Of a DNA stretch of 32,692 nucleotides, positions 6,471-25,557 are shown piece after piece. A program made the position numbers and the translations under genes. Position 1 is the stretch's first letter; every line of letters begins with the position of its first letter. The stretch is from the sequence record SRR22947727_793. The stretch is one strand, 5' to 3'. A model generated the notes under the pieces. The model was not told where the DNA came from, ran no database searches, and saw nothing but the letters and a program-made list of their open reading frames with translations.

Positions 6471-6735
6471 GCCCCTGCTCCTGTAAAAACCGCGCTGTCA
6501 AGGCACCCATAAAGGCAATCGCTAAGCCCCGCAACTGTTTGCGACTTCTGTTTTGCGCCACGCAACCCGCGCCTGCGGCCGCGCAAATTTAACCACAATG
6601 CATAGCCCGCGCCGAAAACCTTCAAAAATTGTTTTCGACCAAAGCCTTGAACAATAACAAGCTTATGGGCCATCATCGGCTTATCGCATTCGGGCTGAAG
6701 GCTTGATGTGCATAAGCTTAAATAGGGGGAAGGTT

Positions 6736-7551: not shown

Positions 7552-7554
7552 CCG

Positions 7555-8010
7555 ATGCGCCGCCTCTCACGGAAAGCGTTTAAAGCCTGTCTAGGGCAAA
7601 CATTTGCCCCCTCCCGCTGGTTTCAGATTGATCAATCGCGCATCGATGCTTTCGCGGCCACCACCGATGATCATCAATTCATCCATGTTGATCCAGAGGC
7701 CGCCGCGCAAACGCAATTTGCGGGAACCATCGCGCATGGGTTTTTGACCCTATCGATGCTTTCAGCAATGTATTATGATGCCGTGCCCGCGATAGACGGC
7801 GCCGAACTCGGCGTGAATTACGGGTTTAATAAGCTGCGGTTTCTGTCACCTGTGAAAGCCGGGGCTTATGTGCGTGGACATTTCACTCTGACCACTGTGC
7901 GCCAAATAAAAGACGATCAACTCACCAACATCTGGGATGTCAGCGTTGAAATCAGAGGCCAAGAGCGCCCGGCCTTGGTGGCTGAATGGATTGGGCAACA
8001 ATATTTTTAA
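7555..8010 (+). CDS. MaoC/NodN-family (R)-specific enoyl-CoA hydratase
   Basis: Hydratase-2 motif FAATTDDHQFIHVDP..TIAHGFLTLS and NYGFNKLRFLSPV. Confidence 0.9.
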   Translation: MRRLSRKAFKACLGQTFAPSRWFQIDQSRIDAFAATTDDHQFIHVDPEAAAQTQFAGTIAHGFLTLSMLSAMYYDAVPAIDGAELGVNYGFNKLRFLSPVKAGAYVRGHFTLTTVRQIKDDQLTNIWDVSVEIRGQERPALVAEWIGQQYF

Positions 8011-8081
8011 CGCAGCGCCCAAAACAACCTGCCGTCCGCAGGCATAACTGGGCCCGCTGATGAAAAGCTAAAAGGGGTTGA

Positions 8082-8747
8082 ATGGCCGAGCTTTACCTAA
8101 TTCGCCATGCGCAAGCCAGTTTTGGCGCAGAGAACTATGATCAATTATCCGACCTTGGCCATCAACAAAGCCAAAGCTTGGGCAAGGCCTTGGCCGATCA
8201 AGGCGTAAGCCCAGATCTTTTCTACGCGGGTGATATGCAGCGCCACCGCGAAACTTTAGAGGGTATTCAAGCCGGGCTGGGGCATAAAAAAAGCCCCTTT
8301 ATTCTTCATACTGGTTTGAATGAATTTGATTTCACCGGGCTTCTAAACGCCCGGTTTCGCAAAGGCGGAGCGCCAGCGCTGATGCATAAAGACCGCAAAG
8401 TGCATTTCAAAACTCTGCGCGACACGGTTTTGGCTTGGCAGCAAAACCAAATCGAAGATCCACCAGAAAGCTGGGGCGTATTTTGCGCTCGGGTCGAAGC
8501 GGCGCGCCAAGCGATGATGATCGAAGGGCCCAAAACCGTGCTGGCAGTCAGCTCGGGGGGCGTGATTGCTCAAATGATCGCCGCGCTGTTGCAAACGCCC
8601 GCCAAACAGCAGATAAAATTGCAACTTCAATTGAAGAATTGCGCGGTCAATCGGTTTATTTTCTCGGCGCGCTCTACCTATCTTCACGGGTTTAATGAAA
8701 CCCCGCATATCACCGCAGCCACCGCGCCGCTTTTATCTTACAGTTGA
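8082..8747 (+). CDS. Histidine phosphatase (PGM-like) family protein
   Basis: LIRHAQASFGAENYDQLS, R..ET, LNEFD, VSSGGVI. Confidence 0.88.
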   Translation: MAELYLIRHAQASFGAENYDQLSDLGHQQSQSLGKALADQGVSPDLFYAGDMQRHRETLEGIQAGLGHKKSPFILHTGLNEFDFTGLLNARFRKGGAPALMHKDRKVHFKTLRDTVLAWQQNQIEDPPESWGVFCARVEAARQAMMIEGPKTVLAVSSGGVIAQMIAALLQTPAKQQIKLQLQLKNCAVNRFIFSARSTYLHGFNETPHITAATAPLLSYS

Positions 8748-8757
8748 GGCTTTTCAG

Positions 8758-9786
8758 ATGACGGATCACACCCCCCTTGATACGGATGCAGTGGCGCTGT
8801 GGATGGCCGATCACATAAAGGGGTTTCAAGGCCCGGTATCTGCCATAAAATTCATCCTTGGCCAATCCAATCCAACCTATGCGTTAACCGCGCAGTCAGG
8901 GCGCTATGTTTTGCGGCGCAAACCGTCCGGTATCTTGCTCAAATCTGCGCATGCGGTTGAGCGCGAATTTCGCGTGCAAAACGCACTCAGCGGCAGCGCA
9001 GTTCCAGTGGCCAGAATGTACAAGCTTTGTGAAGATCCCAGCATCATCGGATCGCCGTTTTACGTGATGGATATGATAGATGGGGTGACCTATAACGAGC
9101 CGCATCTACCCGATCTCGCGCGCGAAAAACGGCGGGCGATTATTATGGAAATGAACCGCGTCTTGGGCGCCATTCATAACGTTGATTTAAGCGCAACGGG
9201 GCTGACCGATTTTGGCCCTGAGGGAAATTATTACCGCCGCCAAACCGACCGTTGGACCAAACAATATCGCGCGAGTGAAACCGAAACGCTGCCAGATATG
9301 GACGCATTGGCCGCATGGCTTGATCAGAATATGCCCGCAGAAGACGGGCAGCGCAGCTTGGTGCATGGCGATTACCGGCTTGATAATATGCTGTTTGCAA
9401 AAGACGCGCCCAACTGCTTGGCCGTCTTGGATTGGGAATTGTCAACGCTGGGCCATCCCTATGCCGATTTGGCAGGCGTGCTTATGCAATGGTCGATGCC
9501 CGTGGGGGCGCAGGGGCGTGGCTTGGCAGGGCTTGCACGCAGCGCCGAAGGGTTAATGGAGGATCAAGAATTTATCGATCTTTACTGTGCCCAGCGCGGT
9601 TTGTCACAAATCGACCGGTTTGAGTTCTATCTGGCCTTTTGTTATTTTCGAATGGCCGCTATCTTGCAGGGTGTGAAAAAGCGGGCTCTGGAGGGCAATG
9701 CCTCTAATCCTGAAAGAGCGATGCAATTGGCCGAACATGTTCCGGCATTGGCCAGCGCCGGCCTCCAAGCCGCGCAAGGCATATAA
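8758..9786 (+). CDS. APH-family phosphotransferase resembling the ACAD10/11 N-terminal kinase domain
   Basis: GQSNPTY, YVLRRKP, SAHAVERE, HGDYRLDN, LDWELSTLGHP.AD; start ATG 8758. Confidence 0.9.
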   Translation: MTDHTPLDTDAVALWMADHIKGFQGPVSAIKFILGQSNPTYALTAQSGRYVLRRKPSGILLKSAHAVEREFRVQNALSGSAVPVARMYKLCEDPSIIGSPFYVMDMIDGVTYNEPHLPDLAREKRRAIIMEMNRVLGAIHNVDLSATGLTDFGPEGNYYRRQTDRWTKQYRASETETLPDMDALAAWLDQNMPAEDGQRSLVHGDYRLDNMLFAKDAPNCLAVLDWELSTLGHPYADLAGVLMQWSMPVGAQGRGLAGLARSAEGLMEDQEFIDLYCAQRGLSQIDRFEFYLAFCYFRMAAILQGVKKRALEGNASNPERAMQLAEHVPALASAGLQAAQGI

Positions 9787-9822
9787 ATTCTAAACCGCCA
9801 ATAATAAAGGCCTTTCATTCAG

Positions 9823-10251
9823 ATGAACTCTCAAAGCCCCCCCCAAGAAGCCCCCTATCCTTTGCAGCGCCATTTAGGATTTAGCGTAACCGATTGGCGG
9901 ATTGATTACTGCCGGCTTGAATTGCCGCTTCAAGGCTTTTTAATGAACCGGCAAGGCATTCCACATGGTGGCATACACGCAACATTGATGGATACGGCAA
10001 TGGGGTTTTCGGGCTGCTTTTCGGATGATCCAGAACGCCCCCGCTATGCCATGACGCTAAACTTATCGGTCAATTTCCTTGGCTTGCCAGAAGGGGATTT
10101 GCTGATCACGCAAGCCTGGCGCACCGGCGGCGGACAAAGCACGTTTTTTGCCGATGCCAAAGTCACCGATGAAAATCAAACCGTTTTGGCCAGCGCAACG
10201 GGCGTGTTTCGCTATCGCAAAAATTTTACGAAAGGCCCAAACCATGGATAA
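9823..10251 (+). CDS. PaaI-family hotdog-fold thioesterase
   Basis: N..GIPHGGIHATLMDTAMG motif; TLNLSVNFL. Confidence 0.88.
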   Translation: MNSQSPPQEAPYPLQRHLGFSVTDWRIDYCRLELPLQGFLMNRQGIPHGGIHATLMDTAMGFSGCFSDDPERPRYAMTLNLSVNFLGLPEGDLLITQAWRTGGGQSTFFADAKVTDENQTVLASATGVFRYRKNFTKGPNHG

Positions 10252-14292: not shown

Positions 14293-15128
14293 AACTGGCG
14301 CTTGTTCAAATCTGCAGTGGGGATAACCCAACAAAAAACCTAGGAAAAACATGTGGTTTCATTCGCAAGGCAGCGCGGGCCGGGGCCGAACTGATCGTAA
14401 CCCCCGAAGTGACCAATTGCGTGTCTCAAAACCGCGATCACCAACGGCAAGTTTTACAAACAGAGGCTCAAGATCTTACCTTGGCGCAGCTGCGCAAGCT
14501 GGCAGAACAGGAACGTATCTGGCTGCTGATTGGCTCTTTAGCGTTGAAAAATTCCGGGCCGGATGATCGGTTTTCCAACCGGTCTTTTCTGATTGATCCG
14601 CAGGGTCAGATTCAGGCCCGCTATGATAAAATTCATATGTTTGATGTCACCTTATCCGGCAGCGAATCATATACCGAATCCGATGGCTACAAACCGGGCA
14701 ATCGTGCTGTCTTAAGCCAAACGCCTTTTGGCACCTTGGGCATGACCATTTGCTATGATCTGCGCTTCCCGCAGCTTTACCGCGATTTGGCCCAGAAGGG
14801 GGCGCAGCTGATCAGCGTGCCCGCGGCGTTTTCCTGCACCACCGGCCCCGCCCATTGGGAAATATTACTGCGCGCACGGGCGATCGAGACTGGCTGCTTT
14901 CTGTTGGCCGCCGCGCAATCTGGCACGCATCCAACAGACCATGGATCAGCGCGCCGCACATATGGGCATTCTATGGTCATTTCCCCATGGGGGGAAGTTT
15001 TGCTGAATTTAAAATCCGCCCTCGGATTTGGCCTTGTTGATCTTAATCTCGAAGACGTTGACACAGCCCGCAACCGTGTGCCATCGCTACGGGCAGATAC
15101 CCAATACGCCGGACCATTGCATGAGTGA
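14289..15128 (+). CDS. Carbon-nitrogen hydrolase (Nit1-like, probable deaminated-glutathione amidase)
   Basis: Catalytic triad TPE, YDKIHMFDV, ICYDLRFP; HWEILLRARAIE; ATGA overlap with grxC. Confidence 0.9.
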   Translation: MKLALVQICSGDNPTKNLGKTCGFIRKAARAGAELIVTPEVTNCVSQNRDHQRQVLQTEAQDLTLAQLRKLAEQERIWLLIGSLALKNSGPDDRFSNRSFLIDPQGQIQARYDKIHMFDVTLSGSESYTESDGYKPGNRAVLSQTPFGTLGMTICYDLRFPQLYRDLAQKGAQLISVPAAFSCTTGPAHWEILLRARAIETGCFLLAAAQSGTHPTDHGSARRTYGHSMVISPWGEVLLNLKSALGFGLVDLNLEDVDTARNRVPSLRADTQYAGPLHE

Positions 15129-15582
15129 TGCTCAAAACCCGCTTGCCATTTTGTTTTTCAGCGAATTGCTGACCGTTGAACAATTGCTGCGCAATCAACT
15201 GGCCCGCGCGCTGCCCAAAGGGATGGAATTATCTCATTTCTCAGTTCTCAACCAATTGGCGCATATCGGCAATGAACGCACTCCCGCGCAATTGGCCAAA
15301 AGCTTTCACGTCACGCGCGGCGCAATGACCAACACGCTCAGCAAACTTGAGATGGCTGGCTATATTCATATCCGCCCAGATTGGGATGATGCGCGCCGCA
15401 AATTGGTTGCGCTCAGCCCTGCCGGCTCGCAGGCAAGAGATGCCGCACTCAGCGCGCTCACCCCAATGATACAAGAGGTCGTAGAACAAATGGGGGAAGA
15501 TAAAACCCGCCTCTTGCTGCCGGTTTTGCGAGATCTACGCCTGCGGCTAGGAGCCGAAACCGAGCCCAAAAAAAACACCTAA
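15121..15582 (+). CDS. MarR-family transcriptional regulator
   Basis: HFSVLNQL, TPAQLA..FHVTRGAMTNTL, D.RRKLV.L...G winged helix; start ATG 15121. Confidence 0.9.
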   Translation: MSDAQNPLAILFFSELLTVEQLLRNQLARALPKGMELSHFSVLNQLAHIGNERTPAQLAKSFHVTRGAMTNTLSKLEMAGYIHIRPDWDDARRKLVALSPAGSQARDAALSALTPMIQEVVEQMGEDKTRLLLPVLRDLRLRLGAETEPKKNT

Positions 15583-15762: not shown

Positions 15763-16242
15763 GTGAAGACCATCGCATCAGCTATATTTATGATCGCGCT
15801 TTGGCTATTGCTGTCAGGCATTTACAAGCCGATGCTGGTGGGATTTGGCATCGCCTCGGTGATGTTGGTTTTGTTTATCGTGCGGCGGATGGATCAAGTT
15901 GACGGCGATCGTGTGACGGTTGCCTTAAACCCGATCAAATTTCTGACCTATTTTATCTGGTTGCTGGGTGAAATTGCCAAATCAAATTGGGCGGTCACCA
16001 AAGTTATCTTGTCGGGCCAGGCGCCACAACGGCAGCATTTCTTTGAAATTCCTTATTCTCAATCTACTGATTTGGGGCAGGTGATCTTTGCCAATTCGAT
16101 CACCTTGACACCCGGAACTTTGACCGTTGAAACAGAGCAGGGTGATTTCCAAATCCACGCGCTTGCCTATTCAGATGAAGATCTTGAGGCATTGGCCGAT
16201 ATGGACCGTCGCGTCACCGCGATTGAAACGGAGCGGGCCTGA
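15763..16242 (+). CDS. mrpE: Mrp Na+/H+ antiporter subunit E
   Basis: FANSITLTPGTLTV and IHAL motifs; GAGG SD before GTG 15763. Confidence 0.93.
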   Translation: MKTIASAIFMIALWLLLSGIYKPMLVGFGIASVMLVLFIVRRMDQVDGDRVTVALNPIKFLTYFIWLLGEIAKSNWAVTKVILSGQAPQRQHFFEIPYSQSTDLGQVIFANSITLTPGTLTVETEQGDFQIHALAYSDEDLEALADMDRRVTAIETERA

Positions 16243-16244
16243 GC

Positions 16245-16538
16245 ATGTTTGAGATTGCCGCCATCGCCATTTTTGTTGCTATGTTGCTAGTGCTAATCCG
16301 CTTGATCAAAGGCCCCACGCTTTATGATCGCGTTTTGGCAGGAAACGCCTTTGGGACGCATACAGTGCTGCTGATCGGTGTGGTCGGGTTTTTAACCGGG
16401 CGCCCGGATTTTTTGGATATCGCGCTGCTTTATGCTCTGATCAACTTTGTTGGCACGATCGCAATTTTGAAGTTTTTCAGATATCGGGCGATCGGCGACG
16501 CGCTGTGGACGCCCAAGCAAGAGGAGCCAAAAGAATGA
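16245..16538 (+). CDS. mrpF: Mrp antiporter subunit F
   Basis: GPTLYDRVLA, LDIALLYALINFVGTIA. Confidence 0.93.
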   Translation: MFEIAAIAIFVAMLLVLIRLIKGPTLYDRVLAGNAFGTHTVLLIGVVGFLTGRPDFLDIALLYALINFVGTIAILKFFRYRAIGDALWTPKQEEPKE

Positions 16539-16909
16539 CCTTTCCCGCGCTCTTGATCGATATCTTAAGCTGGGCGATGATCCTTGCCGGATCTTTTTTC
16601 GTGATTATCGGCGCCGTTGGTACTTTGCGCTTTCCCGATTTCTGGTCACGCCTACATGCCGCCTCGGTGACAGAATCAGCCGGCATGATCTTGCTGCTGA
16701 TCGGGATGGCGCTGCAAACGGGCTGGACATTGATCGCCTTTAAACTTGGTGTGATCGGCATTTTTATGTTGATCACCGGCCCAACCTCAACCCATGCTGT
16801 GGCCAATGCCGCGCTGGTATCTGGGCTGCGGCCACCTAAATTACCCCAAACCTCGCCGCAAAAGGCTGCCGCGGAAGCGGCTGATAAAAACCAAACAGGT
16901 GACGCATAG
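16535..16909 (+). CDS. mrpG: Mrp antiporter subunit G
   Basis: RFPDFWSRLHAAS, GPTSTHAVA.AA; ATGA overlap with mrpF. Confidence 0.93.
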   Translation: MTFPALLIDILSWAMILAGSFFVIIGAVGTLRFPDFWSRLHAASVTESAGMILLLIGMALQTGWTLIAFKLGVIGIFMLITGPTSTHAVANAALVSGLRPPKLPQTSPQKAAAEAADKNQTGDA

Positions 16910-16929
16910 AAAGCTTCATTAATATAGCC

Positions 16930-17478
16930 TTGTTCAGCATGTTGGTGATCACCGCTTTGGCAGTGGTGCGCACGCATTCTTTGTTTGCTATCGTGGCGCT
17001 GTCGGGGGTGTTTAGCCTGCTTTCTGCCTTGCTTTTTATCACGCTTGATGCCGTTGATGTGGCCTTTACCGAAGCGGCCGTGGGCGCAGGAATTTCAACA
17101 GTATTGATGCTCAGCACATTGGCGCTGACATCGCGCGCTGAGAAAGTCAGCCATAAACCAAACCTAATCCCCTTACTTGCGGTGATTGTCACCGGCGCGG
17201 CACTGGTTTACGGCACGCTCGATATGCCGAGCTTTGGCGCGCCTGAAGCGCCCGTTCACACACATCTTGGCCCAGCTTATTTGCATGATATTCCACATGA
17301 TATCCACGTGCCAAACGCAGTGACTGCGATTTTGGCCAGCTATCGCGGGTATGATACGTTGGGGGAAACCGCGGTGGTGTTCGCCGCTGGGATTGGTGTG
17401 TTGATGCTGATCAGCGGATTGCGCCGGCGTCGGCGCCCCGAGGATCAGGACGATGACGCGCAGAAGGAGGCCAGCTGA
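16930..17478 (+). CDS. Mrp subunit B-related protein (DUF4040 / MrpA C-terminal-like domain)
   Basis: LDAVDVAFTEAAVGAG and NAVTAILASYRGYDTLGE, both typical of the MrpA C-terminal domain. Start uncertain: the frame is open through ATA 16906 and ATT 16918. Confidence 0.88.
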   Translation: MFSMLVITALAVVRTHSLFAIVALSGVFSLLSALLFITLDAVDVAFTEAAVGAGISTVLMLSTLALTSRAEKVSHKPNLIPLLAVIVTGAALVYGTLDMPSFGAPEAPVHTHLGPAYLHDIPHDIHVPNAVTAILASYRGYDTLGETAVVFAAGIGVLMLISGLRRRRRPEDQDDDAQKEAS

Positions 17479-17918
17479 TGCGTCACCATCTTATCTTGCG
17501 GGTGATTACCAAGCTTCTGGTAGGCACGATTTTTCTCTTCGCTTTATACGTTCAATTCCACGGTGATTACTCGCCCGGTGGCGGCTTCCAAGCCGGCGTG
17601 ATTATGGCTGTTGGGTTTATCATCTACGGATTGGTCTTCAGCCTAAAAAAGGCCAAGCAAGTGTTTCCACCTTGGTTGGTGCATAAATTGCTGGCCTTTG
17701 GCGTTTTGCTTTATGCCGGCACGGGGATTTATAGCTTGTTCATGGGCTATGCCTATTTGGATTATGCCGCGATTGACCCCCAACATCCCTCGCATGGTCA
17801 ACATTTGGGGATTTTGATCGTCGAAGCGGGCGTTGGCATCACGGTGACGGGGGTCATGGTGGCGATCTATTATGCCTTCGCGGCCCGCGCACCAATTTTA
17901 AGCGATGAGGATTGGTAG
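17478..17918 (+). CDS. mrpB: Mrp antiporter subunit B
   Basis: HGDYSPGGGFQAG, E.GVG.TV. Confidence 0.92.
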   Translation: MRHHLILRVITKLLVGTIFLFALYVQFHGDYSPGGGFQAGVIMAVGFIIYGLVFSLKKAKQVFPPWLVHKLLAFGVLLYAGTGIYSLFMGYAYLDYAAIDPQHPSHGQHLGILIVEAGVGITVTGVMVAIYYAFAARAPILSDEDW

Positions 17919-17919
17919 A

Positions 17920-18354
17920 ATGGGTACGCCAATGCTTGAATTTGTGATAGGGCACGCCAATTACTGGTTGTTTATTCTATTGATGATGACCGGCCTTTAC
18001 ATCGTGATTGCCAAAGGCAATCTGGTAAAGAAAATTGTTGGTCTGAATATCTTTCAAACCTCTGTTTTCATGCTCTATATTTCAATGGGAAAAATTGCCG
18101 GCGGCACCGCGCCGATCTTTCCTTTAGATTTGACAGTTGATCCAGATACGCTCTATTCAAACCCGCTTCCGCATGTGCTTATTCTCACTGCGATTGTGGT
18201 GGGCGTTGCCACTACATCTTTGGGATTGGCGTTGATTATCCGTATCCGCGAAGAATACCACAATATTGAAGAAGCGCAGATTGCCGAGGCCGAAGAGGCC
18301 TTATTTCAATCTGAAATCAAAGCCTCGGATACTGCAATGAAAGAGGCCGTGTGA
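17920..18354 (+). CDS. mrpC: Mrp antiporter subunit C
   Basis: NLVKKIVGL, NPLPHVLILTAIVVGVA; start 17920 (GAGG SD) or 17932. Confidence 0.93.
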   Translation: MGTPMLEFVIGHANYWLFILLMMTGLYIVIAKGNLVKKIVGLNIFQTSVFMLYISMGKIAGGTAPIFPLDLTVDPDTLYSNPLPHVLILTAIVVGVATTSLGLALIIRIREEYHNIEEAQIAEAEEALFQSEIKASDTAMKEAV

Positions 18355-19880
18355 TGGCAAGTGAAACCGTTCATCATACCGCGATGACGCTCAGCGAGCA
18401 TTTGCCGATCCTAGAAATTCTGGTGCCCTTCGTCGCGGCACCCCTGATTGTGTTCATTGGCCGCCGCGATCTGGCTTGGCCGATCGCCTTTATCGCCAGC
18501 GCCGCCTCCTTTGTGATCGCGGGAATGCTGTTAAGCCAAGTGATTGATGGCTCTGTTATTTCTTATCAATTGGGGGGCTGGGCGCCACCTTTGGGCATCG
18601 AATACCGCGTCGACACGGCCAATGCATTCGTGCTGCTGCTGGTCTCGGGGATCAGCACCTTAGTGTTGCCCTATGCCAAAGCCAGCGTGGCGCGGGAATT
18701 GCCCGAAAGCGCGCAGACGCTGTTTTACGCGCTGTTTTTGCTTTGTTTCACGGGGCTTCTGGGCGTTACGATTACAGGCGATGCCTTCAATGTGTTCGTG
18801 TTTTTGGAAATCTCATCGCTGTCTACCTATGTGTTGATCGCGCAGGGCGCACATCGTGATAAGCGGGCACTGACCGCCTCGTATAACTATCTGATCATGG
18901 GCACGATAGGCGCCACCTTCTTTGTGATTGGCGTTGGCTTTCTTTATATGGCCACCGGCACGTTGAATATGGCCGATCTCGCAGATCGCATCGAAAACCA
19001 ATATGATAGCCGTACCGTGCGCGCCGCCTTTGCCTTCATCATGGTGGGCATGGGGTTAAAAGTGGCAATCTTCCCACTGCATTTATGGCTGCCCAATGCC
19101 TATACATACGCCCCCTCAGCAATCACCAGCTTTCTCGCCGCAACGGCCACAAAAGTGGCTATCTATGTGATGCTGCGATTCCTGTTCAGCGTCTTTCAGC
19201 CAGGGTTTCTGGCCGAAGTGCCAACGCTTGATCTTATTCTTTACCCTTTTGCAATTTTGGCGATGTTCGCTGCGTCTTACACGGCGATTTTGCAGCGTGA
19301 TCTCAAGCGCATGCTGGCCTATTCCAGCATCGGGCAAGTGGGATATATGCTTTTGGGCATCGCGCTGCTGTCAGAAAGCGGGTTGATGGCAACGATGATC
19401 CATCTGTTCAACCACGGCATCACAAAAGCCGCGCTTTTCATGGGGGTGGGCGTCTATGTGCTGAATGGCGGCGGGTCGTTTTACCATAACTTACGCGGAC
19501 GCGGAAAAACCATGCCTTGGACCAGCGCCGCGATGGTGGTGGCTGGGCTGTCTTTGATCGGCGTTCCAGGCACGGCCGGTTTTCTGAGCAAATGGCTTTT
19601 GGTTGAAGCCACATTGGAGCAAGGCCTCTGGCCAATCGCTTTGTTGATCGTGGCCTCGTCTTTGCTGGCTGTGATCTATGTGTGGAAATTGATCGAAACG
19701 CTGTATTTGGCGCAACCTGCCGAGGGCCTGCAAGACCAAAACGTGCCCTTAATGATGATGATCCCACTTTGGGTTATGGCGTTAGCCTGCATCTATTTTG
19801 GCTTTGACACAGACATCACGCTCAGCGCAGCGCGCAGCGCAGCGGAAGGTCTTTTGGCCGGATCCGCAGGGATGCGCTAG
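18351..19880 (+). CDS. mrpD: Mrp antiporter subunit D (first antiporter-like subunit)
   Basis: GGWAPPLGIE, GDAFNVFVFLEI, LKVAIFPLHLWLPNAY, ATKVA, GFLSKW. Confidence 0.93.
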   Translation: MMASETVHHTAMTLSEHLPILEILVPFVAAPLIVFIGRRDLAWPIAFIASAASFVIAGMLLSQVIDGSVISYQLGGWAPPLGIEYRVDTANAFVLLLVSGISTLVLPYAKASVARELPESAQTLFYALFLLCFTGLLGVTITGDAFNVFVFLEISSLSTYVLIAQGAHRDKRALTASYNYLIMGTIGATFFVIGVGFLYMATGTLNMADLADRIENQYDSRTVRAAFAFIMVGMGLKVAIFPLHLWLPNAYTYAPSAITSFLAATATKVAIYVMLRFLFSVFQPGFLAEVPTLDLILYPFAILAMFAASYTAILQRDLKRMLAYSSIGQVGYMLLGIALLSESGLMATMIHLFNHGITKAALFMGVGVYVLNGGGSFYHNLRGRGKTMPWTSAAMVVAGLSLIGVPGTAGFLSKWLLVEATLEQGLWPIALLIVASSLLAVIYVWKLIETLYLAQPAEGLQDQNVPLMMMIPLWVMALACIYFGFDTDITLSAARSAAEGLLAGSAGMR

Positions 19881-19886
19881 GGGTAT

Positions 19887-21359
19887 ATGGCAATGGAAAC
19901 ATCCTTCGCAATTCTGCTTTCAATGCTGCTGCCCGGCGCGGCTGTTCTCAGCAATATGCTGCTGCGCAACAGCCCCGATCTGCGCGACGGGCTGACATTG
20001 GGTGCCGCGATTGCCACCTTCATGGTGGTGCTGAATATTTTGGCCAATGTGGGCAATACAACCACAGAAACCTTTACTTTCCTGACGGTTATGCCGGGTC
20101 TGGAATTGGCCTTCAATGTTGAGCCTTTGGGCTTGATGTTTGCGCTCTTGGCCTCGGTGCTATGGATCGTCACGCATCTCTATGGCCTTGGCTATATGCG
20201 CGGCAATAATGAAGACAATCATGCAAGATTCTTTGCCTGTTTCTCTTTCGCTATTTTTTCGGTGATGGGCATCGCTTTTGCCGCCAATATGTTTACCCTC
20301 TTTCTATTTTATGAGGCGCTGACGCTCTCAACCTATCCGCTGGTGGCGCATAAGGGCAATATGGCTGCGATCAAGGGCGCGCGCACCTATCTGGGTATTT
20401 TGATCGGTACGTCCATCGGCTTGCAATTGGTGGCGATCATCTGGACCTACGCGGTTGCAGGCACGCTTGATTTTGCAAAAGGCGGCATTTTGCAAGGGCT
20501 GATCGCGGGCCCCAGCGTTGCCATCCTGCTGGCACTTTACGCCTTTGGCATTGGCAAAGCCGCACTGATGCCTTTTCACCGCTGGCTGCCCGCGGCGATG
20601 GTCGCGCCGACACCGGTGAGCGCTTTGCTGCACGCCGTTGCCGTTGTGAAAGCCGGCGTCTTTACCATGCTGAAAGTTGGGATCTATATCTTTGGCATCG
20701 AGTTTCTAGCAGAAAGCGGCGCCTCAACCTGGTTGATGTGGCTCGCGGCCTTCTCGATCCTGGCCGCTTCTGTCATTGCCATGACCAAAGATAATTTAAA
20801 GGCGCGGCTCGCGTACTCCACGATCAGCCAATTGTCTTACATCACGCTGGGCGTGGCGTTGGCCAGTTCCATGGGGATATTGGGCGGCGGGCTGCATGTG
20901 GTCATGCATGCGATGGGTAAAATCACCTTATTCATGTGCGCTGGCTCGATCTATGTTGCCACCCACCGCACTGAAATCAGCCAGATGACCGGTTTGGGGC
21001 GGCGTATGCCGATCACTTTTATCGCCTTTTTGATCGGTGCCTTATCGATCATTGGTTTACCACCTTTAGGCGGCTCTTGGAGTAAATGGCTGCTGATGGT
21101 GGGTGCAGTGGATGCCGAACATCTGTTTATACTGGGCGTTTTGCTGGTGAGCTCTCTGTTGAACGTGGCCTATTTGCTGCCGTTGGTGGCAAAGGGGTTT
21201 TTCTTGAGCAACGATACAGATGCCGAACTGGCGCAATCTGCAGAGGCCTCGCCGCTTGTCTGGGGGCCCCCAGCAGCAACCGCCTTTGGCTGCGTGGTGC
21301 TGTTTTTCTATGCCGGGCATATTCAAGATTTTCTAATGCCGATCGTGGCCACAAATTAA
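19887..21359 (+). CDS. Second antiporter-like subunit (MrpA/NuoL-type core)
   Basis: FLFYEALTLSTYPL, GKAALMPFHRWLPAAMVAPTPVSALLHAVAVVKAG, LKARLAYSTISQL, HAMGKITLFM.AG. Confidence 0.9.
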   Translation: MAMETSFAILLSMLLPGAAVLSNMLLRNSPDLRDGLTLGAAIATFMVVLNILANVGNTTTETFTFLTVMPGLELAFNVEPLGLMFALLASVLWIVTHLYGLGYMRGNNEDNHARFFACFSFAIFSVMGIAFAANMFTLFLFYEALTLSTYPLVAHKGNMAAIKGARTYLGILIGTSIGLQLVAIIWTYAVAGTLDFAKGGILQGLIAGPSVAILLALYAFGIGKAALMPFHRWLPAAMVAPTPVSALLHAVAVVKAGVFTMLKVGIYIFGIEFLAESGASTWLMWLAAFSILAASVIAMTKDNLKARLAYSTISQLSYITLGVALASSMGILGGGLHVVMHAMGKITLFMCAGSIYVATHRTEISQMTGLGRRMPITFIAFLIGALSIIGLPPLGGSWSKWLLMVGAVDAEHLFILGVLLVSSLLNVAYLLPLVAKGFFLSNDTDAELAQSAEASPLVWGPPAATAFGCVVLFFYAGHIQDFLMPIVATN

Positions 21360-21369
21360 GGAGGCGCAA

Positions 21370-21717
21370 ATGGATAAGAACCATCCCGAAGACACCAGCG
21401 GATATAGCCCCCTTGCGAAACTGTTCGTGTGGTTTGCAACGCCGGCCAATGCGAATAAAATTTTTGCCGCGCTTATTGCGCTGTGCCTGCTGCTGTTTCT
21501 GTCAGATTTTACCTATAAGAAATACGGCCATTTCCCGATCGAAAAGATCCCCGGATTTTACGGCGCCTACGGGTTTATCATGTTCACCGCGTTGATTTTA
21601 GCCGCCAAAACGCTGCGCCTCTTCATCAAACGCGACGAGACATATTATGGCGAAAAATCAGTCGATCGCGAAGAATATCCGGCCGATCAATTGGAGATGG
21701 GGCAACATAATGATTGA
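21370..21717 (+). CDS. Small two-TM membrane protein embedded in the mrp operon
   Basis: Strong SD AGGAGG; two hydrophobic segments flanking HFPIEKIPGFYG; overlaps the next gene's start. Confidence 0.85.
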   Translation: MDKNHPEDTSGYSPLAKLFVWFATPANANKIFAALIALCLLLFLSDFTYKKYGHFPIEKIPGFYGAYGFIMFTALILAAKTLRLFIKRDETYYGEKSVDREEYPADQLEMGQHND

Positions 21718-23404
21718 GGCGATGCCAACGTTCTATCTCTTTGTTCTGGCCGCGCTGGGCGCCGGCCTGTTGCCCAAAGGATCCATGCGGGCGGCGCTTT
21801 TGCTACTTGTACCGGTTCTGGCAGCGCTTCAGATCTGGTCCTTGCCCGAAGGAAACCTTTATCAGGTTGAACTGTTGGGTCAGCAACTTGAGCTGATGCG
21901 GGTGGATAAACTGTCGCGCGTTTTTGGGCTGATTTTCTGTATTGCCGCGTTTTTGGGCAATCTCTACGCATGGCATATCAAAGATACCGTGCAGCAAATT
22001 GCCGCCGTGCTTTATTCTGGTTCGGCGATCGGAGCGGTTTTTGCCGGGGATCTGGTGACGCTGTTTTTTTACTGGGAAGGCACCGCGATTGCATCGGTAT
22101 TCTTGATCTGGGCGCGGCGCACTGAGGGCGCGTATCATACCGGGATGCGCTATCTGATCATTCAAATCACCTCGGGTGTGATTTTGCTGGCGGGCACAGC
22201 GCTGCTATATCGCGAAACAGGCTCTATTGCCTTTGAGCAAATGACGCTTGGATCCTTGGCCACTTGGCTAATCTTTTTATCCTTTGGGATGAAATGCGCT
22301 TTTCCGTTTTTGCACAATTGGTTGCAAGACAGCTACCCCGCCGCCACCATCACCGGCACGGTGATCCTTTCTGCCTTTACCACCAAATTAGCCGTTTATG
22401 CTTTGGCCCGCGGCTTTGCCGGCACTGAAATGCTAATTTATATCGGCGCTGTGATGACGCTGTTTCCAATTTTCTTTGCCGAAATTGAAAACGATCTGCG
22501 CCGCGTTCTGGCCTATAGTTTGAACAACCAGCTGGGCTTTATGGTGGTGGGCATTGGTGTTGGAACCGAAATGGCCCTGAACGGCACCGCCTCTCACGCT
22601 TTCGCGCATATTCTGTACAAAGCACTTTTGTTCATGAGCGTCGGCGCGGTGCTGTTGCGAACCGGCACGTCAAAAGCCTCAGAGCTGGGCGGGCTCTGCC
22701 GTACCATGCCGCGTACGGCCCTGTTTTGTTTGATCGGAGCCGCCTCAATTTCGGCTTTCCCGCTTTTCTCTGGATTTGTCACCAAATCTTTGATTATGGA
22801 TGAGACCGCAAACGAACATTATCCAATCATATGGGCCATCTTGGTATTTGCCTCGGCTGGTGTTCTATCACATTCAGGGATTAAGATCCCGTATTTCACC
22901 TTTTTTGGCCATGACAGTGGATTGCGCCCCAAAGAAGCCCCATGGAACATGCAGCTGGCGATGGGGATTACCGCGTTTCTGTGCATTTTCATTGGGGTTT
23001 ACCCCGATCCGCTCTACGCGCTTTTGCCCTATGACGTGGTTTATAAACCCTACACAACCAATCACGTGATTGCCCAATTGCAATTGCTATGCTTTGCGTT
23101 ATTGGCTTTTGCAGTTCTAATGCGCAGCGGTATTCATCCACCCGAAATACGCGCGGTGAACTTGGATGTTGATTGGATCTATCGACGCTTGATCCCAAAG
23201 CTTTACCGCCCGATTGCCGCGTTGATTGGCTCGATTTGGACCGCGTTAAGCGAGGCGGCTTTGAAAAACCTTGGGCAGTTTCAGAATTTGTTATACCGCT
23301 GGCACAGCCCGGAAACCGGAATGGCCCGCGTGCGGCCAACCGGCGCTATGGTGATTTGGGTTGCGATCCTATTGGCGGTGACTTTGATCGCCAGTTATTT
23401 TTAA
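21710..23404 (+). CDS. Third antiporter-like subunit (MrpD family, with C-terminal extension)
   Basis: FFYWEG, MKCAFPFLHNWLQDSYP, FTTKLAVY, HAFAHILYKALLFM, GFVTKS; tail LDVDWIY plus amphipathic segment and a final TM; GGAG SD before ATG 21710. Confidence 0.9.
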   Translation: MIEAMPTFYLFVLAALGAGLLPKGSMRAALLLLVPVLAALQIWSLPEGNLYQVELLGQQLELMRVDKLSRVFGLIFCIAAFLGNLYAWHIKDTVQQIAAVLYSGSAIGAVFAGDLVTLFFYWEGTAIASVFLIWARRTEGAYHTGMRYLIIQITSGVILLAGTALLYRETGSIAFEQMTLGSLATWLIFLSFGMKCAFPFLHNWLQDSYPAATITGTVILSAFTTKLAVYALARGFAGTEMLIYIGAVMTLFPIFFAEIENDLRRVLAYSLNNQLGFMVVGIGVGTEMALNGTASHAFAHILYKALLFMSVGAVLLRTGTSKASELGGLCRTMPRTALFCLIGAASISAFPLFSGFVTKSLIMDETANEHYPIIWAILVFASAGVLSHSGIKIPYFTFFGHDSGLRPKEAPWNMQLAMGITAFLCIFIGVYPDPLYALLPYDVVYKPYTTNHVIAQLQLLCFALLAFAVLMRSGIHPPEIRAVNLDVDWIYRRLIPKLYRPIAALIGSIWTALSEAALKNLGQFQNLLYRWHSPETGMARVRPTGAMVIWVAILLAVTLIASYF

Positions 23405-23656
23405 AAGCGCTTAACGTTTAACCAACCATCCACCGCATGAAAGCCCCAAAGCCAAAGCCTAAAATCAGAGCCTTAAATCTTAGCAAAAAACCACCTCAGG
23501 GTTTTCAAATAGGCATCGGGTTTGCGCCATGGCAGCGGCAGAATTGCCGCGCTTAAGACAAAATAAAAACATATTTTATGCGTAAACCACCTCGTAAGAG
23601 TTTGTTAAAGCCTTGTTGTTATTGCTGGGGCTTGCGCGGCTTAAGGTCGTTTATCG

Positions 23657-24328
23657 ATGATAGAGTTTCGGAATGTCAGTAAATCCTTTTGGACGGGCAC
23701 GCGCCGAAAAATCATTCTGAATAATGTGTCTTTCCGGGTAGAGCTGGGGCTATCTTTGGGCATTTTAGCCTCAAATGGCACGGGCAAAACAACCTAAATC
23801 AATATGATCGCGGGGTTGGAAAAACCGGATGAGGGCCAGATCACGCGGGCCTGCAATATATCCTTTCCTCTGGGGTTTATGGGCGGCGTTGTTCCCAAAC
23901 ATACGGGCCAAGAAAATGCGCGCTATATCGCCAAACTCTATGGGATGGATCCAAATTTTGTAGAGGCGTTTTGCCGCTGGTTATGCGGTTTAGAAGAATA
24001 TTTTGACCAGCCGCTTGGCACTTATTCTTCTGGTATGCGCGCGCGATTTACGTTTTCGCTGATGCTGGCGATGGATTTTGACGTCTATCTGATCGATGAA
24101 GGCATGCCCACCAGCACGGATGTCGAGTTTAACCGAAAAGCTGGTGAAATCTTAGCGGAACGCTTGCAAAGCACCACCACCATTGTGGTCTCGCATCAAG
24201 CAGAGGTGCTGGAACAATATGCGCAAAAAGCCGCCGTGCTTACCGTTGGCTCTTTATATTTCTTTGACAGTTTAGGCGACGCGAAAAACCGCTGCAGGCG
24301 CCCCCCTCATCGCCGCAAAAAACCTTAA
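23657..24328 (+). pseudogene. kpsT: KpsT-like polysaccharide-export ABC ATPase with in-frame nonsense codon and aberrant 3' end
   Basis: ATG 23657 reads MIEFRNVSKSFWTG..LASNGTGKTT*(TAA 23795-23797)INMIAG; then YSSGMRARFTF, YLIDEG, VSHQ. The downstream 174-aa ORF lacks Walker A. Confidence 0.85.
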
Positions 24329-24453: not shown

Positions 24454-25557
24454 ATGACGCGGCGACGGCGACGTCTAATCCAAAAGCTAATCCTGCGCCT
24501 AAGCATCTTTATTCTTCTGCCAACATTGGCCGCAGGCTATTATTACAGCTTCATTGCAACGCCAATGTTTGCCACGGACACGGCCTTCCAAATCACCACG
24601 GGTGATAGCACAAATCCAAGCTCACCTTCTATGTTTGGCGGCGGTCAATTCGCCACAACGCCCGATGCCATCGCAGTGCAAACCTATCTCCAATCAAAAG
24701 AAGCGATGATTCGCCTACAAGATAATGAAGGGTTTAAGGCCACCTTCTCGGATCCCACAATTGATTGGTGGCAACGTTTGCCTACAGAGGCTTCATTTGA
24801 AGAAACGTATAAAACCTATCTCAAGCATATCAAAATCGCCTTTGACCCCACCGAGGGCATGATCAATATGGAGATCAGCTCCCCCTCGCCCGAATTGAGC
24901 GTGTTATTTTCAAAAGCGCTTCTGACCTATGCCGAGCAAAAAATCGATGGGCTTTCGCAGCGCAAACAAGAAAATCAATTGTCTGATGCCCGCAAATCTT
25001 TGGCGACGGCAGAAGACGCGCGCGTAGACGCGCAGCGGCACTTAATTGCCTTGCAACAATCCACGCTTCTTGATCCAGAGGCCTATGCCACAAGCCTTCG
25101 AGCGCAAATCAGCGGGCTTGAAGAAAAAGCACTGCAAAAAACCATCGAGCTTCAGGCGTTTCTGGATAATGCCAATCCCAATAGCAGCCGCATTGCGGGC
25201 TTGCGCGCCGAAATCCAGCGCCTCCAAAATGCCAAACGCGAAACCGAGGCAAAAATGATTGCGCAAATGCCCAATGGGATGACGTTGCCCGAGTTGCTTG
25301 CGCGTTTGCAAATGGCCGCTTCTGACGTTGCGACGCGTGATTTGATGCTGCAATCCGCTTTAGAGCAGCTGCGCGCAACGCAAATTCAAGCCACATCGCA
25401 ATCGCGCTATCTTACAGTCGCGGTAGAGCCTATTGCACCGCAAGATCCGGCCTATCCCAGGCATATTCATGATACGCTTCTGGTGTTTTTGATCCTTTCA
25501 GGCGTGTATCTCATAATTTCAATCACGGCGTCCATTTTATGCGAACAAATCTCATAA
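24454..25557 (+). CDS. KpsE-like capsule export inner-membrane protein (polysaccharide co-polymerase), probably 5'-truncated
   Basis: N-terminal TM (FILLPTLAAGYYY..IATPMF), YLQSKEAM.RL, coiled coils, RYL..VEP.AP....YPR and C-terminal TM. The frame is open upstream to 24268 with no start codon. Confidence 0.75.
   Translation: MTRRRRRLIQKLILRLSIFILLPTLAAGYYYSFIATPMFATDTAFQITTGDSTNPSSPSMFGGGQFATTPDAIAVQTYLQSKEAMIRLQDNEGFKATFSDPTIDWWQRLPTEASFEETYKTYLKHIKIAFDPTEGMINMEISSPSPELSVLFSKALLTYAEQKIDGLSQRKQENQLSDARKSLATAEDARVDAQRHLIALQQSTLLDPEAYATSLRAQISGLEEKALQKTIELQAFLDNANPNSSRIAGLRAEIQRLQNAKRETEAKMIAQMPNGMTLPELLARLQMAASDVATRDLMLQSALEQLRATQIQATSQSRYLTVAVEPIAPQDPAYPRHIHDTLLVFLILSGVYLIISITASILCEQIS

What the first reader, a model, noticed from the sequence alone, without database searches (positions are those of the whole stretch)
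15763..23404. Non-canonical Mrp complex: three antiporter-like subunits with MrpA features spread across separate genes
Seen: order E-F-G-B'-B-C-D1-D2-orf-D3 with no full-length mrpA. All three large subunits retain the TM5 Glu, TM7 Lys and TM12 Lys. D2 has the MrpA/NuoL signature PTPVSALLHA but ends at 490 aa. D3 has a TM8 Lys (TTK) and an LDVDWIY-amphipathic-TM tail resembling the NuoL/MrpA lateral helix. The MrpA C-terminal motifs (DVAFTE, RGYDTLGE) form a stand-alone gene. Known: canonical Mrp has two such subunits and complex I has three; rearranged group-3-type operons exist but are poorly characterised. Inference: a three-channel antiporter with different H+/Na+ stoichiometry, or alternative assemblies.
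Basis: partly seen in the sequence, partly recalled or inferred. Interest (0 to 1): 0.7.

Follow-up and report, generated by a model that had tools for sequence, protein, structure and literature searches.

The report
Ten-gene three-pump Mrp antiporter operon
This is an intact, expressed ten-gene operon for a stand-alone sodium/proton-type membrane exchanger with three pump-like subunits instead of two, a layout that is common in marine bacteria and already annotated but has never been tested at the bench.

Summary
Window 15763-23404 (+) encodes mrpE-F-G, a stand-alone MrpA C-terminal domain (B'), mrpB, mrpC, three antiporter-like subunits (D1, D2, D3) and a 115-aa two-helix protein between D2 and D3. 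All three large subunits keep the TM5 Glu and the TM7, TM8 and TM12 Lys.

D2 carries the MrpA-type His+Lys on TM8. D3 carries a NuoL/MbsH'-type TM15, lateral helix and TM16.

It is not a rarity. The ten genes are collinear in 69 of 80 close loci and 15 of 20 distant ones, from Planctomycetota, Myxococcota, Desulfobacterota and a Pelotomaculum MAG. The D3 family occurs in 27 of 401 sampled Pseudomonadota genomes. The same layout is tabulated for a Nitrospira genome (PMC7784846), and this scan met it three times before on other DNA.

- D2-orf-D3 is a portable cassette. In 8 of 29 sampled places it sits in NuoL's slot of a complex I operon.
- The small protein belongs to an unnamed family of 811 clusters.
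- The operon lies on contigs of 4 of 4 seawater metatranscriptomes laid.

Best reading: one three-channel group-3 Mrp. Its stoichiometry is untested.

The parts
15763..16242 (+). mrpE (about 159 aa). GTG start with GAGGA 7 nt upstream; the open frame reaches back to TTG 15637.
   Evidence: PF01899 4.8e-29, from residue 50 of the 201-aa frame. Sequence read. Orthologues align from residues 3-8 of the 160-aa form.
16245..16538 (+). mrpF (97 aa) with the GP..YDR motif
   Evidence: PF04066 4e-19. D and R of YDR are kept in 84 of 85 cognate genes.
16535..16909 (+). mrpG (124 aa from ATG 16535; the frame is also open from GTG 16505)
   Evidence: PF03334 2e-23; TIGR01300 78.2 bits, above its cut-off of 63.1. 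ATGA overlap with the mrpF stop.
16930..17478 (+). B': stand-alone MrpA C-terminal domain (MbhD+MbhE, DUF4040), 182 aa, with DVAFTE and RGYDTLGE
   Evidence: PF13244 1.7e-17 and PF20501 4.8e-07. NF009159 188.2 bits, above its cut-off of 141. D and E of DVAFTE kept in 88 of 88, and R, D, E of RGYDTLGE in 89 of 89.
17478..17918 (+). mrpB (146 aa)
   Evidence: PF04039 6e-30; NF009162 177.6 bits, above its cut-off of 120.
17905..18354 (+). mrpC (NuoK-like, 149 aa)
   Evidence: PF00420 4.6e-20; NF005621 126.6 bits, cut-off 126.
18351..19880 (+). D1: MrpD/MbsH/NuoN-type antiporter-like subunit, 509 aa, 14 TM, with E153, K237, K268, K414
   Evidence: Best solved relatives are MbsH 6u8y_H 2.9e-69, MbhH 2.2e-55 and MrpD 7qru_D 3.9e-53. 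Residues mapped. Clade support 97/97, on the MrpD/NuoM/NuoN side of the tree.
19887..21359 (+). D2: MrpA-N/NuoL-type antiporter-like subunit without lateral helix, 490 aa, with E143, K224, H249+K255 (TM8), K400
   Evidence: PF00361 8.8e-52 plus PF00662, the NuoL N-terminal domain. Best solved relatives are NdhF 1.5e-40 and NuoL 9.3e-35. His+Lys on TM8 is the MrpA signature (PMC7419157 passage). Clade support 100/100.
21370..21717 (+). Small conserved subunit ('orf'), 115 aa: an amphipathic helix, two TM helices and an R.EDYY tail. GGAGG lies 6 nt upstream, and the stop overlaps the D3 start by 8 nt.
   Evidence: No Pfam or NCBIfam match. 811 representative clusters at E<=1e-3. Found between D2 and D3 in 92 cognate loci. 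AF2 model pLDDT 78.7. Sequence read.
21710..23404 (+). D3: MbsH'-like antiporter-like subunit with TM15, lateral helix and TM16, 564 aa (frame open from ATG 21647)
   Evidence: NF009310 723 bits, above its cut-off of 564. Best solved relative is MbsH' 6u8y_X 9.9e-33. Fold. Sister to MrpA+NuoL at 95/92.
23371..23404 (+). Terminator-like hairpin with a T-run at the D3 stop (weak)
   Evidence: Pattern scan; the number of such sites in the region is not above shuffles (18 found against 13.0 +/- 3.8).

Best explanation
The ten genes encode one stand-alone, secondary cation/proton antiporter of the Mrp (CPA3) group-3 kind with three proton channels.

Inferred architecture, by homology to solved Mrp, MBH and MBS:
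- MrpE, F, G and B, together with B' (the MrpA C-terminal domain) and MrpC, form the Na+ side and the small composite proton path.
- D1 (MrpD type) sits next to MrpC/B'.
- The D2-orf-D3 cassette takes the place of the N-terminal antiporter module of MrpA.
- D3 lies at or near the far end and throws its lateral helix and TM16 back over its neighbours as the clamp.
- The two-helix protein is a fixed partner of D3.

Inferred transport: protons enter through three channels instead of two while Na+ (possibly K+ or Li+) leaves. The exchange would then be more electrogenic, towards 3 H+ per Na+ instead of about 2.

My own illustrative arithmetic, with assumed values: membrane potential 150 mV, cytoplasm 0.5 pH unit more acid than seawater, 30-fold Na+ gradient. 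Two H+ per Na+ give about 90 mV of drive against about 90 mV needed. Three H+ give about 210 mV. This fits a marine bacterium at pH about 8 and 0.5 M Na+.

Shown: gene content, residues, fold of D3, conservation, presence on RNA-library contigs.
Inferred: subunit order, ion, direction and stoichiometry.
For: (1) All seven Mrp subunit families lie in one tight same-strand cluster.

(2) The ten genes are collinear in 69 of 80 close loci, and the other 11 are cut by contig ends; none of the 67 loci with at least 6.5 kb upstream lacks a gene. They are collinear in 15 of 20 distant loci, with 1 split into two divergent units and 4 cut. In an even sample of the phylum, 19 of 29 D3 places have this layout.

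(3) Channel residues are kept in cognate genes:
- D1: E 90/91, K 90/91, K 91/92, K 91/92.
- D2: E 94/94, K 95/96, H 95/96, K 97/97, K 97/97.
- D3: E 100/100, K 95/100, K 100/100, K 99/99.

(4) Acidic and other motifs on the Na+ side are kept: B' D..E 88/88 and MrpF D-R 84/85. That these are the functional residues is recalled from the Mrp mutagenesis literature, not checked here.

(5) D3 has a NuoL/MbsH'-type TM15-HL-TM16. A lateral helix that holds the antiporter-like subunits together is universal in this superfamily (PMC8165549 and PMC7684303 passages).

(6) No redox module is nearby. The window has none. No NuoB/C/D/H/I, hydrogenase or formate dehydrogenase family appears among 85 flanking ORFs of 12 diverse loci.

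(7) Contigs of 4 of 4 seawater RNA libraries (four studies) cover 15808-23430 at word depth 6-31, against 0-3 in the upstream bins and under 1 downstream. One contig spans 15808-22599.

(8) The nearest complete genome, G001, has only NuoL, M, N and D1-D3 as PF00361 genes, so no canonical Mrp. It has no CPA1/2, NhaA or NhaB hit.

(9) Related group-3 Mrp systems work as Na+/H+ antiporters. These are Aphanothece (Fukaya 2009, as told in PMC5703873 passages) and the P. furiosus stand-alone Mrp (PMC8415708 passages).
Against: - No assay, structure or co-purification exists for any member of this layout; none was found in paper searches.
- The subunit order D1-D2-D3 is not shown. In MBS the D3-like MbsH' lies directly next to the D1-like MbsH, so D1-D3-D2 is possible.
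- The 45-residue helix (about 67 A) may be too short to span three subunits.
- Tail length is not tied strictly to the number of pumps. Four Mrp-context loci outside Pseudomonadota have tails of 105-115 aa, as long as those in complex I.
- The D3 TM7 Lys is Asn in 5 of 100 loci.
- RNA evidence comes from assembled contigs. They cannot show strand, ends or one transcript, and DNA can be present in RNA libraries.
- G001 has a CitMHS-family carrier (200 bits) that could be an NhaD-type antiporter, and a sub-threshold NhaC-like hit. Mrp is therefore not shown to be its only Na+/H+ exchanger.
Confidence: 0.7

Rival explanations
1. D2-orf-D3 is a free-standing, exchangeable two-pump module that docks on different base complexes. 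In the cell it may serve complex I or another partner as well as, or instead of, the Mrp base. The ten genes would then not define one fixed complex.
For: - The same trio sits between nuoJ/K and nuoM in 8 of 29 sampled places.
- One genome has a bare trio beside flagellar genes, in addition to two full operons.
- A Desulfobacula locus has orf-D3 divergent from E..D2.
- D2 and D3 trees both put the complex I versions at the base.
Against: - In the Mrp context the trio is always fused to the operon, with short or overlapping junctions. D1 to D2 overlaps or lies within 30 nt in 57 of 61 loci.
- The nearest genome G001 has its own NuoL in the nuo operon.
- The bare trio is 1 case of 29.
Confidence: 0.1
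2. It is an ordinary two-channel Mrp in function. One of the three large subunits is only a structural spacer or a regulatory subunit.
For: - The canonical H+/Na+ ratio of about 2 is itself only estimated (PMC7419157 passage).
- The D3 TM7 Lys is replaced by Asn in 5 of 100 loci, and the D2 TM11 His by Gln in 10 of 97.
Against: The full set of TM5 Glu, TM7 Lys, TM8 Lys and TM12 Lys is kept in each of D1, D2 and D3 in at least 95% of cognate genes, across Pseudomonadota, Planctomycetota, Myxococcota, Desulfobacterota and a Pelotomaculum MAG.
Confidence: 0.08
3. It is the membrane arm of a redox-driven ion pump (MBH/MBS- or complex-I-like) whose electron-input module is encoded elsewhere.
For: - The gene order equals mbh/mbx A-H(H').
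- D1 is closest to MbsH and D3 to MbsH'.
- In MBS, TM15-16 of MbsH' tie on the redox module (PMC7684303 passage).
- The cassette also serves complex I.
Against: - No NuoB/C/D/H/I-like or hydrogenase gene lies in the window or among 85 flanking ORFs of 12 diverse loci.
- Flanks differ from locus to locus.
- An earlier follow-up on the Parvibaculum-type neighbour (Mo-hydroxylase) judged it an unrelated neighbour (e1-2641425; not re-tested here beyond seeing the gene).
Confidence: 0.05
4. The architecture is as in the best explanation, but the transported cation or the direction differs: K+/H+ or Ca2+/H+ exchange, or Na+-gradient-driven proton extrusion.
For: - Mrp members with K+ (Pha1) or Ca2+ (Thermomicrobium roseum) specificity are described (PMC5703873 passages).
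- The P. furiosus stand-alone Mrp is proposed to take Na+ in and pump H+ out (PMC8415708 passage).
Against: Most carriers are marine or saline organisms, and the runs that hold the operon are seawater or marine metagenomes. This fits Na+ handling. No sequence feature tested here tells the ion.
Confidence: 0.07

Closest known systems
Pyrococcus furiosus stand-alone group-3 Mrp, mrpEFGBB'CD (PMC8415708, passages read)
   Same: - The order of the first seven genes is the same.
- There is no mrpA.
- The MrpA C-terminal domain is a separate small protein.
- It is a stand-alone antiporter with a genetic phenotype in pH homeostasis.
   Different: The archaeal system has one antiporter-like subunit and no lateral-helix subunit. 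The window adds D2, the small protein and D3.
Membrane arm of MBS (MbsA-H, H'; PDB 6u8y; PMC7684303 and PMC8165549, passages read)
   Same: - D1 is closest to MbsH (2.9e-69) and D3 to MbsH' (9.9e-33).
- MbsH' also has TM15, helix HL and TM16 holding the pumps together.
- The gene order is collinear.
   Different: - MBS has two antiporter-like subunits and a NiFe-hydrogenase-derived redox module (MbsJKLMN), which is absent here.
- MbsH has Glu where D1 has the TM7 Lys.
- MBS has no D2 or small-protein counterpart named in the passages read.
[quoted passage not shown]
   Same: The D2-orf-D3 trio is the same cassette.
- 50% identity for D2 and 49% for D3; 29% for the small protein (E 2e-6).
- The same NCBIfam models apply: NF006236 (836 bits) and NF009310 (793 bits).
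   Different: - There the cassette sits between nuoJ/K and nuoM-nuoN of a redox-driven pump with four antiporter-like subunits.
- D3 tails are 102-107 aa (8 of 8), against 79-88 aa in Mrp-context places of the same sample (15 of 15 with the motif).
'Ca. Nitrospira alkalitolerans' group-3 Mrp locus (PMC7784846; passages and supplement file 5 read)
   Same: Consecutive genes are annotated mrpE, F, G, mrpA (fragment), B, C, D, mrpA/D (nuoL) and mrpA/D (nuoM). This is the same layout in another phylum, read there as a Na+/H+ antiporter.
   Different: It is annotation only. The small protein is not listed, and there is no discussion of three channels or of the complex I cassette.
Canonical group 1/2 Mrp (PDB 6z16, 7qru, 7d3u; PMC7419157, passages read)
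   Same: - The subunit families are the same.
- MrpA-type His+Lys on TM8 (D2).
- A lateral helix (D3).
- An MrpA C-terminal domain (B').
- MrpD type (D1).
   Different: One MrpA polypeptide is replaced by four genes (B', D2, small protein, D3). There are three rather than two antiporter-like subunits, and the gene order is EFG-first.

Membership tests
Mrp / CPA3 antiporter, group 3 | All Mrp subunit families (E, F, G, B, C, D and the MrpA C-terminal domain) encoded in one cluster | tested here: met
   Pfam and NCBIfam matches for each gene.
Mrp / CPA3 antiporter, group 3 | No full-length mrpA; only MrpD-size antiporter-like subunits, sometimes several (definition in PMC8415708) | tested here: met
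   The largest subunit is 564 aa. B' matches only the C-terminal part of MrpA models.
Mrp / CPA3 antiporter, group 3 | Cation/proton antiport activity | not testable with these tools
Mrp / CPA3 antiporter, group 3 | Charged channel residues in the antiporter-like subunits (TM5 Glu, TM7 Lys, TM8 Lys/His, TM12 Lys) | tested here: met
   conservation.
MBH/MBS-type respiratory complex | Mrp-like module in A-H gene order | tested here: met
   The order E-F-G-(D+E)-F-G-H equivalents is collinear.
MBH/MBS-type respiratory complex | Adjacent NuoB/C/D/H/I-like redox module (MbhJKLMN) | tested here: not met
   None in the window, nor among 85 flanking ORFs of 12 loci.
Complex I with NuoL replaced by the D2-orf-D3 cassette ('green' type) | D2-like, small protein and D3-like in this order | tested here: met
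Complex I with NuoL replaced by the D2-orf-D3 cassette ('green' type) | Cassette flanked by nuoJ/K and nuoM/N, with nuoB-G in the operon | tested here: not met
   The window has mrpC-D1 upstream and no nuo gene.
NuoL/MrpA-type antiporter-like subunit (asked of D3) | C-terminal TM15, lateral amphipathic helix and TM16 | tested here: met
   AF2 model; superposition on NuoL and MbsH' through the helix.
NuoL/MrpA-type antiporter-like subunit (asked of D3) | His on the TM8 pi-bulge (PMC7419157) | tested here: not met
   D3 has Lys only (TTK). The His is in D2 (H249).
NuoL/MrpA-type antiporter-like subunit (asked of D2) | Proton_antipo_N domain and TM8 His (+Lys in MrpA) | tested here: met
   PF00662 25.7 bits, above its cut-off of 24.5. 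H249 and K255 are kept in 95/96 and 97/97.
NuoL/MrpA-type antiporter-like subunit (asked of D2) | Lateral helix extension | tested here: not met
   D2 ends after TM14 at 490 aa.

The most novel reading that the evidence does not exclude
D2, the small two-helix protein and D3 form a portable 'booster' cassette.
- It is a pair of proton channels with its own clamp helix and adaptor subunit.
- Evolution has plugged it onto two different bases, an Mrp Na+ module and the complex I quinone module. Each time it raises the number of protons moved per Na+ or per electron pair.
- The clamp tail is lengthened by about 23 residues when one more pump has to be spanned.
- The unnamed small protein family (811 clusters) would be a new obligatory subunit of this superfamily.
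Probability: 0.35. Interest if true: 0.6.

Novelty: new variant of a known kind. Interest (0 to 1): 0.4.

Why it matters
Mrp is taken as the ancestor of the membrane arms of complex I, MBH and MBS. Its H+/Na+ ratio and coupling mechanism are still debated (PMC7419157 passages).

A natural, widespread Mrp with three instead of two antiporter-like subunits is a ready-made test of the idea that each such subunit moves one proton. The same assay on two- and three-channel complexes should give different ratios.

The shared D2-orf-D3 cassette links this antiporter directly to a four-pump complex I. It also adds a conserved small subunit that no family library names.

Ecologically, the operon is carried by abundant marine Rhodobacterales and their relatives and lies on contigs of seawater RNA libraries. 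In the nearest complete genome no CPA1/2, NhaA or NhaB gene was found, so it may be a main Na+ extrusion route there.

Against this, the layout is common, already annotated and already seen three times in this scan. The finding is a lead for bench work, not a surprise.

Tried and rejected
- Complex prediction of D3 (alignment A2) with the small protein (A4) never ran. The tool answered 'queue full' or 'not sent on', and 'no usable answer'. There is therefore no structural evidence on who touches whom.
- Small protein against known folds and families. Pfam and NCBIfam gave no match. The PDB sequence profile gave a best E of 0.54. VIA-align against 48,161 chains gave a best Z of 4.6, which is helical-hairpin noise. 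The ESM Atlas gave only 'hypothetical protein' clusters.
- Promoter and terminator pattern scan: not above shuffles (9 against 8.2; 18 against 13.0).
- Helix length as a ruler for subunit order was rejected as decisive. Within the Pseudomonadota sample the tails split cleanly: 102-107 aa in complex I (8 of 8) against 79-88 aa in Mrp (15 of 15; 4 more Mrp places lacked the exact motif). However, four Mrp-context loci of other phyla have 105-115 aa.
- The RNA contig 3' ends near 23430 are not transcript ends. Three runs show loose ends there, meaning the sampled strain differs downstream.
A single member (P0062) was used instead.
- The MarR gene upstream (15028-15582) was considered as a dedicated regulator. 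It is found beside the operon in only 2 of 80 loci.
- The window's own assembly is not held, so whole-genome statements rest on G001, the nearest genome (76% of words).
[quoted passage not shown] 2018. They are known here only through citing papers, and they may already describe the small ORF or the link to Mrp.

Full report
WHAT IS THERE

Between 15763 and 23404 on the + strand lie ten tightly packed genes. Pfam and NCBIfam name them as follows:
- mrpE (PF01899)
- mrpF (PF04066)
- mrpG (PF03334)
- B', a 182-aa protein that joins the MbhD and MbhE domains. This is the C-terminal domain of MrpA (NF009159, 188 bits against a cut-off of 141).
- mrpB (NF009162, 178 bits against 120)
- mrpC (PF00420)
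- three PF00361 proteins of 509, 490 and 564 aa (D1, D2, D3)
- a 115-aa ORF without any family match, between D2 and D3

Junctions are short or overlapping. These include ATGA at F/G and an 8-nt overlap of the small ORF's stop with the D3 start at 21710. There is no full-length mrpA.

The neighbours are a MarR-type regulator upstream and capsule-export genes downstream. No hydrogenase or Nuo gene is in the window.

They are right.
- Alignment to the solved MBS subunits gives D1 E153/K237/K268/H351/K414 and D3 E144/K216/K247/H317/K380 in 585-aa numbering. These sit at the positions that the MBS papers name as the proton path.
- The same columns are invariant among D1, D2 and D3.
- D2 has PTPVSALLHA...VVK, that is His249 and Lys255 on TM8. 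A passage of the A. flavithermus Mrp paper says that MrpD-like subunits have only the TM8 Lys, that MrpA adds a His on the pi-bulge, and that NuoL keeps only the His (PMC7419157). D2 therefore carries the MrpA signature, plus the NuoL-type N-terminal domain PF00662.
- D3, folded with 29 orthologues, has TM15 (450-473), a 45-residue helix (488-532) and TM16 (545-563). Mean pLDDT is 76.9 and lower in the tail. It superposes on NuoL chains through the helix and on MbsH', with Z about 41.

Two corrections:
- D1 also has the TM8 Lys.
- D3 most likely starts at 21710, not 21647.

HOW COMMON IT IS

Close relatives:
The best 80 loci are marine Rhodobacterales, Rhizobiales, Parvibaculum and gammaproteobacterial Granulosicoccus.
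- In 69 of 80 loci all ten genes are present and collinear. The other 11 are cut by contig ends, and none of the 67 loci with at least 6.5 kb upstream lacks a gene.

Distant relatives:
- Starting from a distant member of the small-protein family gave 21 loci. They come from Planctomycetota (Rhodopirellula, Novipirellula), Myxococcota, Desulfobacterota, a Pelotomaculum MAG and others.
- Of the 20 with matches, 15 have the ten genes collinear, one (Desulfobacula) has orf-D3 divergent from E..D2, and 4 are cut.

Sampled frequency: in an even sample of 401 Pseudomonadota genomes, 27 have a D3-family gene above NCBI's cut-off. None of 14 well-known control genomes does.

THE SMALL PROTEIN

It is a real, conserved subunit.
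- It has a strong Shine-Dalgarno sequence.
- Its motif set is kept in cognate genes: C39 88/92, E58 88/92, G68 92/92, F69 90/92, R83 89/92, E90 91/92, Y93 92/92.
- The predicted shape is an amphipathic helix, two TM helices and a short tail.
- Its stop overlaps the D3 start in 72 of 78 loci, by my heuristic start calls.
- An exhaustive HMMER search finds 811 representative clusters at E<=1e-3 and 152 at E<=1e-10.
- No library names it.

THE CASSETTE

The highest scores to the D3 model came from large genomes of one alphaproteobacterial genus. I looked at one of them, G069, and found this order: nuoJ, nuoK, a D2-like gene (50% identical; NF006236, 836 bits), an 84-aa small ORF (29% identical, E 2e-6, same motifs), a D3-like gene (49% identical; NF009310, 793 bits), then nuoM, nuoN, nuoB, C, D, E, F, G.

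This is the 'green' complex I, in which two MrpD-like subunits replace NuoL. I know it only through passages of PMC9040806 and PMC7415380; the original paper is not held.

I fetched all 29 D3 places of the 27 positive genomes:
- 19 are ten-gene Mrp operons. One is cut at a contig start, and in one the small ORF was not detected.
- 8 are complex I operons. Four are of one genus, three of another family, and one is of the window's own family.
- 1 is a bare D2-orf-D3 trio beside flagellar genes, in a genome that also has two full operons.
- 1 lies on a 3.2-kb contig and cannot be placed.

In this sample, D3 tails after the DxDWxYR motif are 102-107 aa in complex I (8 of 8) and 79-88 aa in Mrp (15 of 15 with the motif; 4 lacked the exact motif). 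The difference of about 23 residues is like the 26-residue insertion reported per extra pump (PMC9040806 passage). However, four Mrp-context loci of other phyla have tails of 105-115 aa, so the rule is not strict.

FAMILY TREE

The tree has 45 sequences: D1-D3 of 11 loci; the complex I versions; and NuoL/M/N, one MrpA and one MrpD from two genomes. It was built with IQ-TREE under LG+C20.
- D1, D2 and D3 are each one clade (97/97, 100/100, 100/100).
- {D1, MrpD, NuoM, NuoN} split from {D2, D3, MrpA, NuoL} with support 92/84.
- D3 is sister to MrpA+NuoL (95/92).
- The references are few, MrpA and MrpD sit on long branches, and no archaeal Mbh/Mbs sequence was on hand. I take only the coarse picture: D1 is MrpD-type, and D2 and D3 are both of the MrpA/NuoL side and are old, not recent copies (27% identity to each other).

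EXPRESSION

Twenty-two of 23 listed public runs hold the stretch; they are seawater or marine metagenomes and metatranscriptomes. I laid four runs recorded as RNA, from four studies.
- All four have contigs over 15808-23430, with word depth 6-31 inside against 0-3 in the bins upstream and under 1 downstream.
- One contig spans 15808-22599 and another 20115-23427.
- Contigs cannot show strand, ends or a single transcript. The 3' ends carry loose ends (strain differences).
- The contrast with the flanks argues for RNA rather than carried-over DNA.

WHAT IT MOST LIKELY DOES

It is a stand-alone group-3 Mrp antiporter with three proton channels.

The Na+-side motifs are kept: B' D..E 88/88, RGYD 89/89, and MrpF D-R 84/85. 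Their role is recalled from the literature, not tested here.

No redox module is near in the window or in 12 diverse loci (85 flanking ORFs).

The nearest complete genome (G001):
- It has only NuoL/M/N and D1-D3 as PF00361 genes.
- It has no CPA1/2, NhaA or NhaB hit.
- It has a sub-threshold NhaC-like hit and one CitMHS-family carrier.

By homology I infer the following:
- D1 sits next to MrpC/B'.
- D2-orf-D3 takes the place of the N-terminal module of MrpA.
- The helix and TM16 of D3 act as the clamp.

A third channel should raise the H+ per Na+ ratio. This is an inference, and the subunit order, ion and direction are not shown. The complex prediction that could have tested the D3-small protein contact never ran (see Tried and rejected).

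WHAT IS KNOWN

- Group 3 Mrp is defined as lacking mrpA and having one or more mrpD (PMC8415708; PMC5703873).
- The P. furiosus stand-alone mrpEFGBB'CD has a genetic phenotype.
- The Aphanothece mrpCD1D2EFGAB works as a Na+/H+ antiporter in E. coli, as told in PMC5703873.
- For 'Ca. Nitrospira alkalitolerans' the very layout of the window is tabulated: mrpE, F, G, mrpA fragment, B, C, D, mrpA/D (nuoL), mrpA/D (nuoM). The small ORF is not listed (PMC7784846, text and supplement file 5).
- The Mrp structure paper says that the two-subunit unit can be extended to three or four in complex I-like enzymes. It does not mention a three-subunit Mrp in the passages I read.

Seven paper searches found no assay or structure of a three-channel Mrp and no name for the small protein. 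Subscription papers are not searched.

This scan met the same operon type three times before on other genomes and reached the same reading, including the complex I link. I saw those notes after my own.

VERDICT

It is a common, annotated but experimentally untouched variant of a known kind. Two modestly new points are the portable D2-orf-D3 cassette and its unnamed small subunit.

Noticed in passing
G103 loci L121:7751-11316, L122, L123: One genome of the same phylum (93% complete) holds two full ten-gene operons and a third, bare D2-orf-D3 trio. The trio has flagellar genes (FlgD/E, FliL/M/N/O/P, CheW) on the other strand upstream and a response regulator downstream.
   Followed up: partly
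L097 (Desulfobacula MAG) 2644-10201: orf-D3 lies on one strand and E-F-G-B'-B-C-D1-D2 on the other, divergent. This is the only locus in which the cassette is broken between D2 and the small gene.
   Followed up: no
window 23804-24328 and 24454-25557; window 2004-2507 (-): These are capsule-export genes.
- A 174-aa ABC ATPase piece matches only positions 51-208 of 231 of VexC/KpsT-type models.
- There is a KpsE-family protein.
- Far away lies a KpsM-like piece.
The first two lie beside the Mrp operon, in either orientation, in many Rhodobacterales loci.
   Followed up: partly
window 2148-2300 (+): Rfam match to the Ruegeria cis2 sRNA (54.5 bits, gathering score 50). It lies opposite the KpsM-like ORF 2004-2507.
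   Followed up: no
window 15028-15582: A MarR-family regulator lies directly upstream on the same strand. It was found beside the operon in only 2 of 80 related loci (L006, L007).
   Followed up: partly
L051 13082-15463 and L063 13002-15383 (Parvibaculum): A molybdenum hydroxylase large subunit (CoxL-like) lies about 1.3 kb downstream of D3. An earlier follow-up of this scan judged this an unrelated neighbour (e1-2641425).
   Followed up: no
window 15808-15868: The RNA-library contigs of four studies all begin 45-105 nt inside the proposed mrpE frame, without loose ends. Depth upstream is 0-4. This may be incomplete 5' assembly or a start site inside the annotated frame.
   Followed up: no
G037 locus L128: A genome of the window's own family carries the D2-D3 cassette in a nuoJ...nuoM-nuoN-nuoB context rather than in an Mrp operon. 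The complex I form is therefore not confined to rhizobia.
   Followed up: partly
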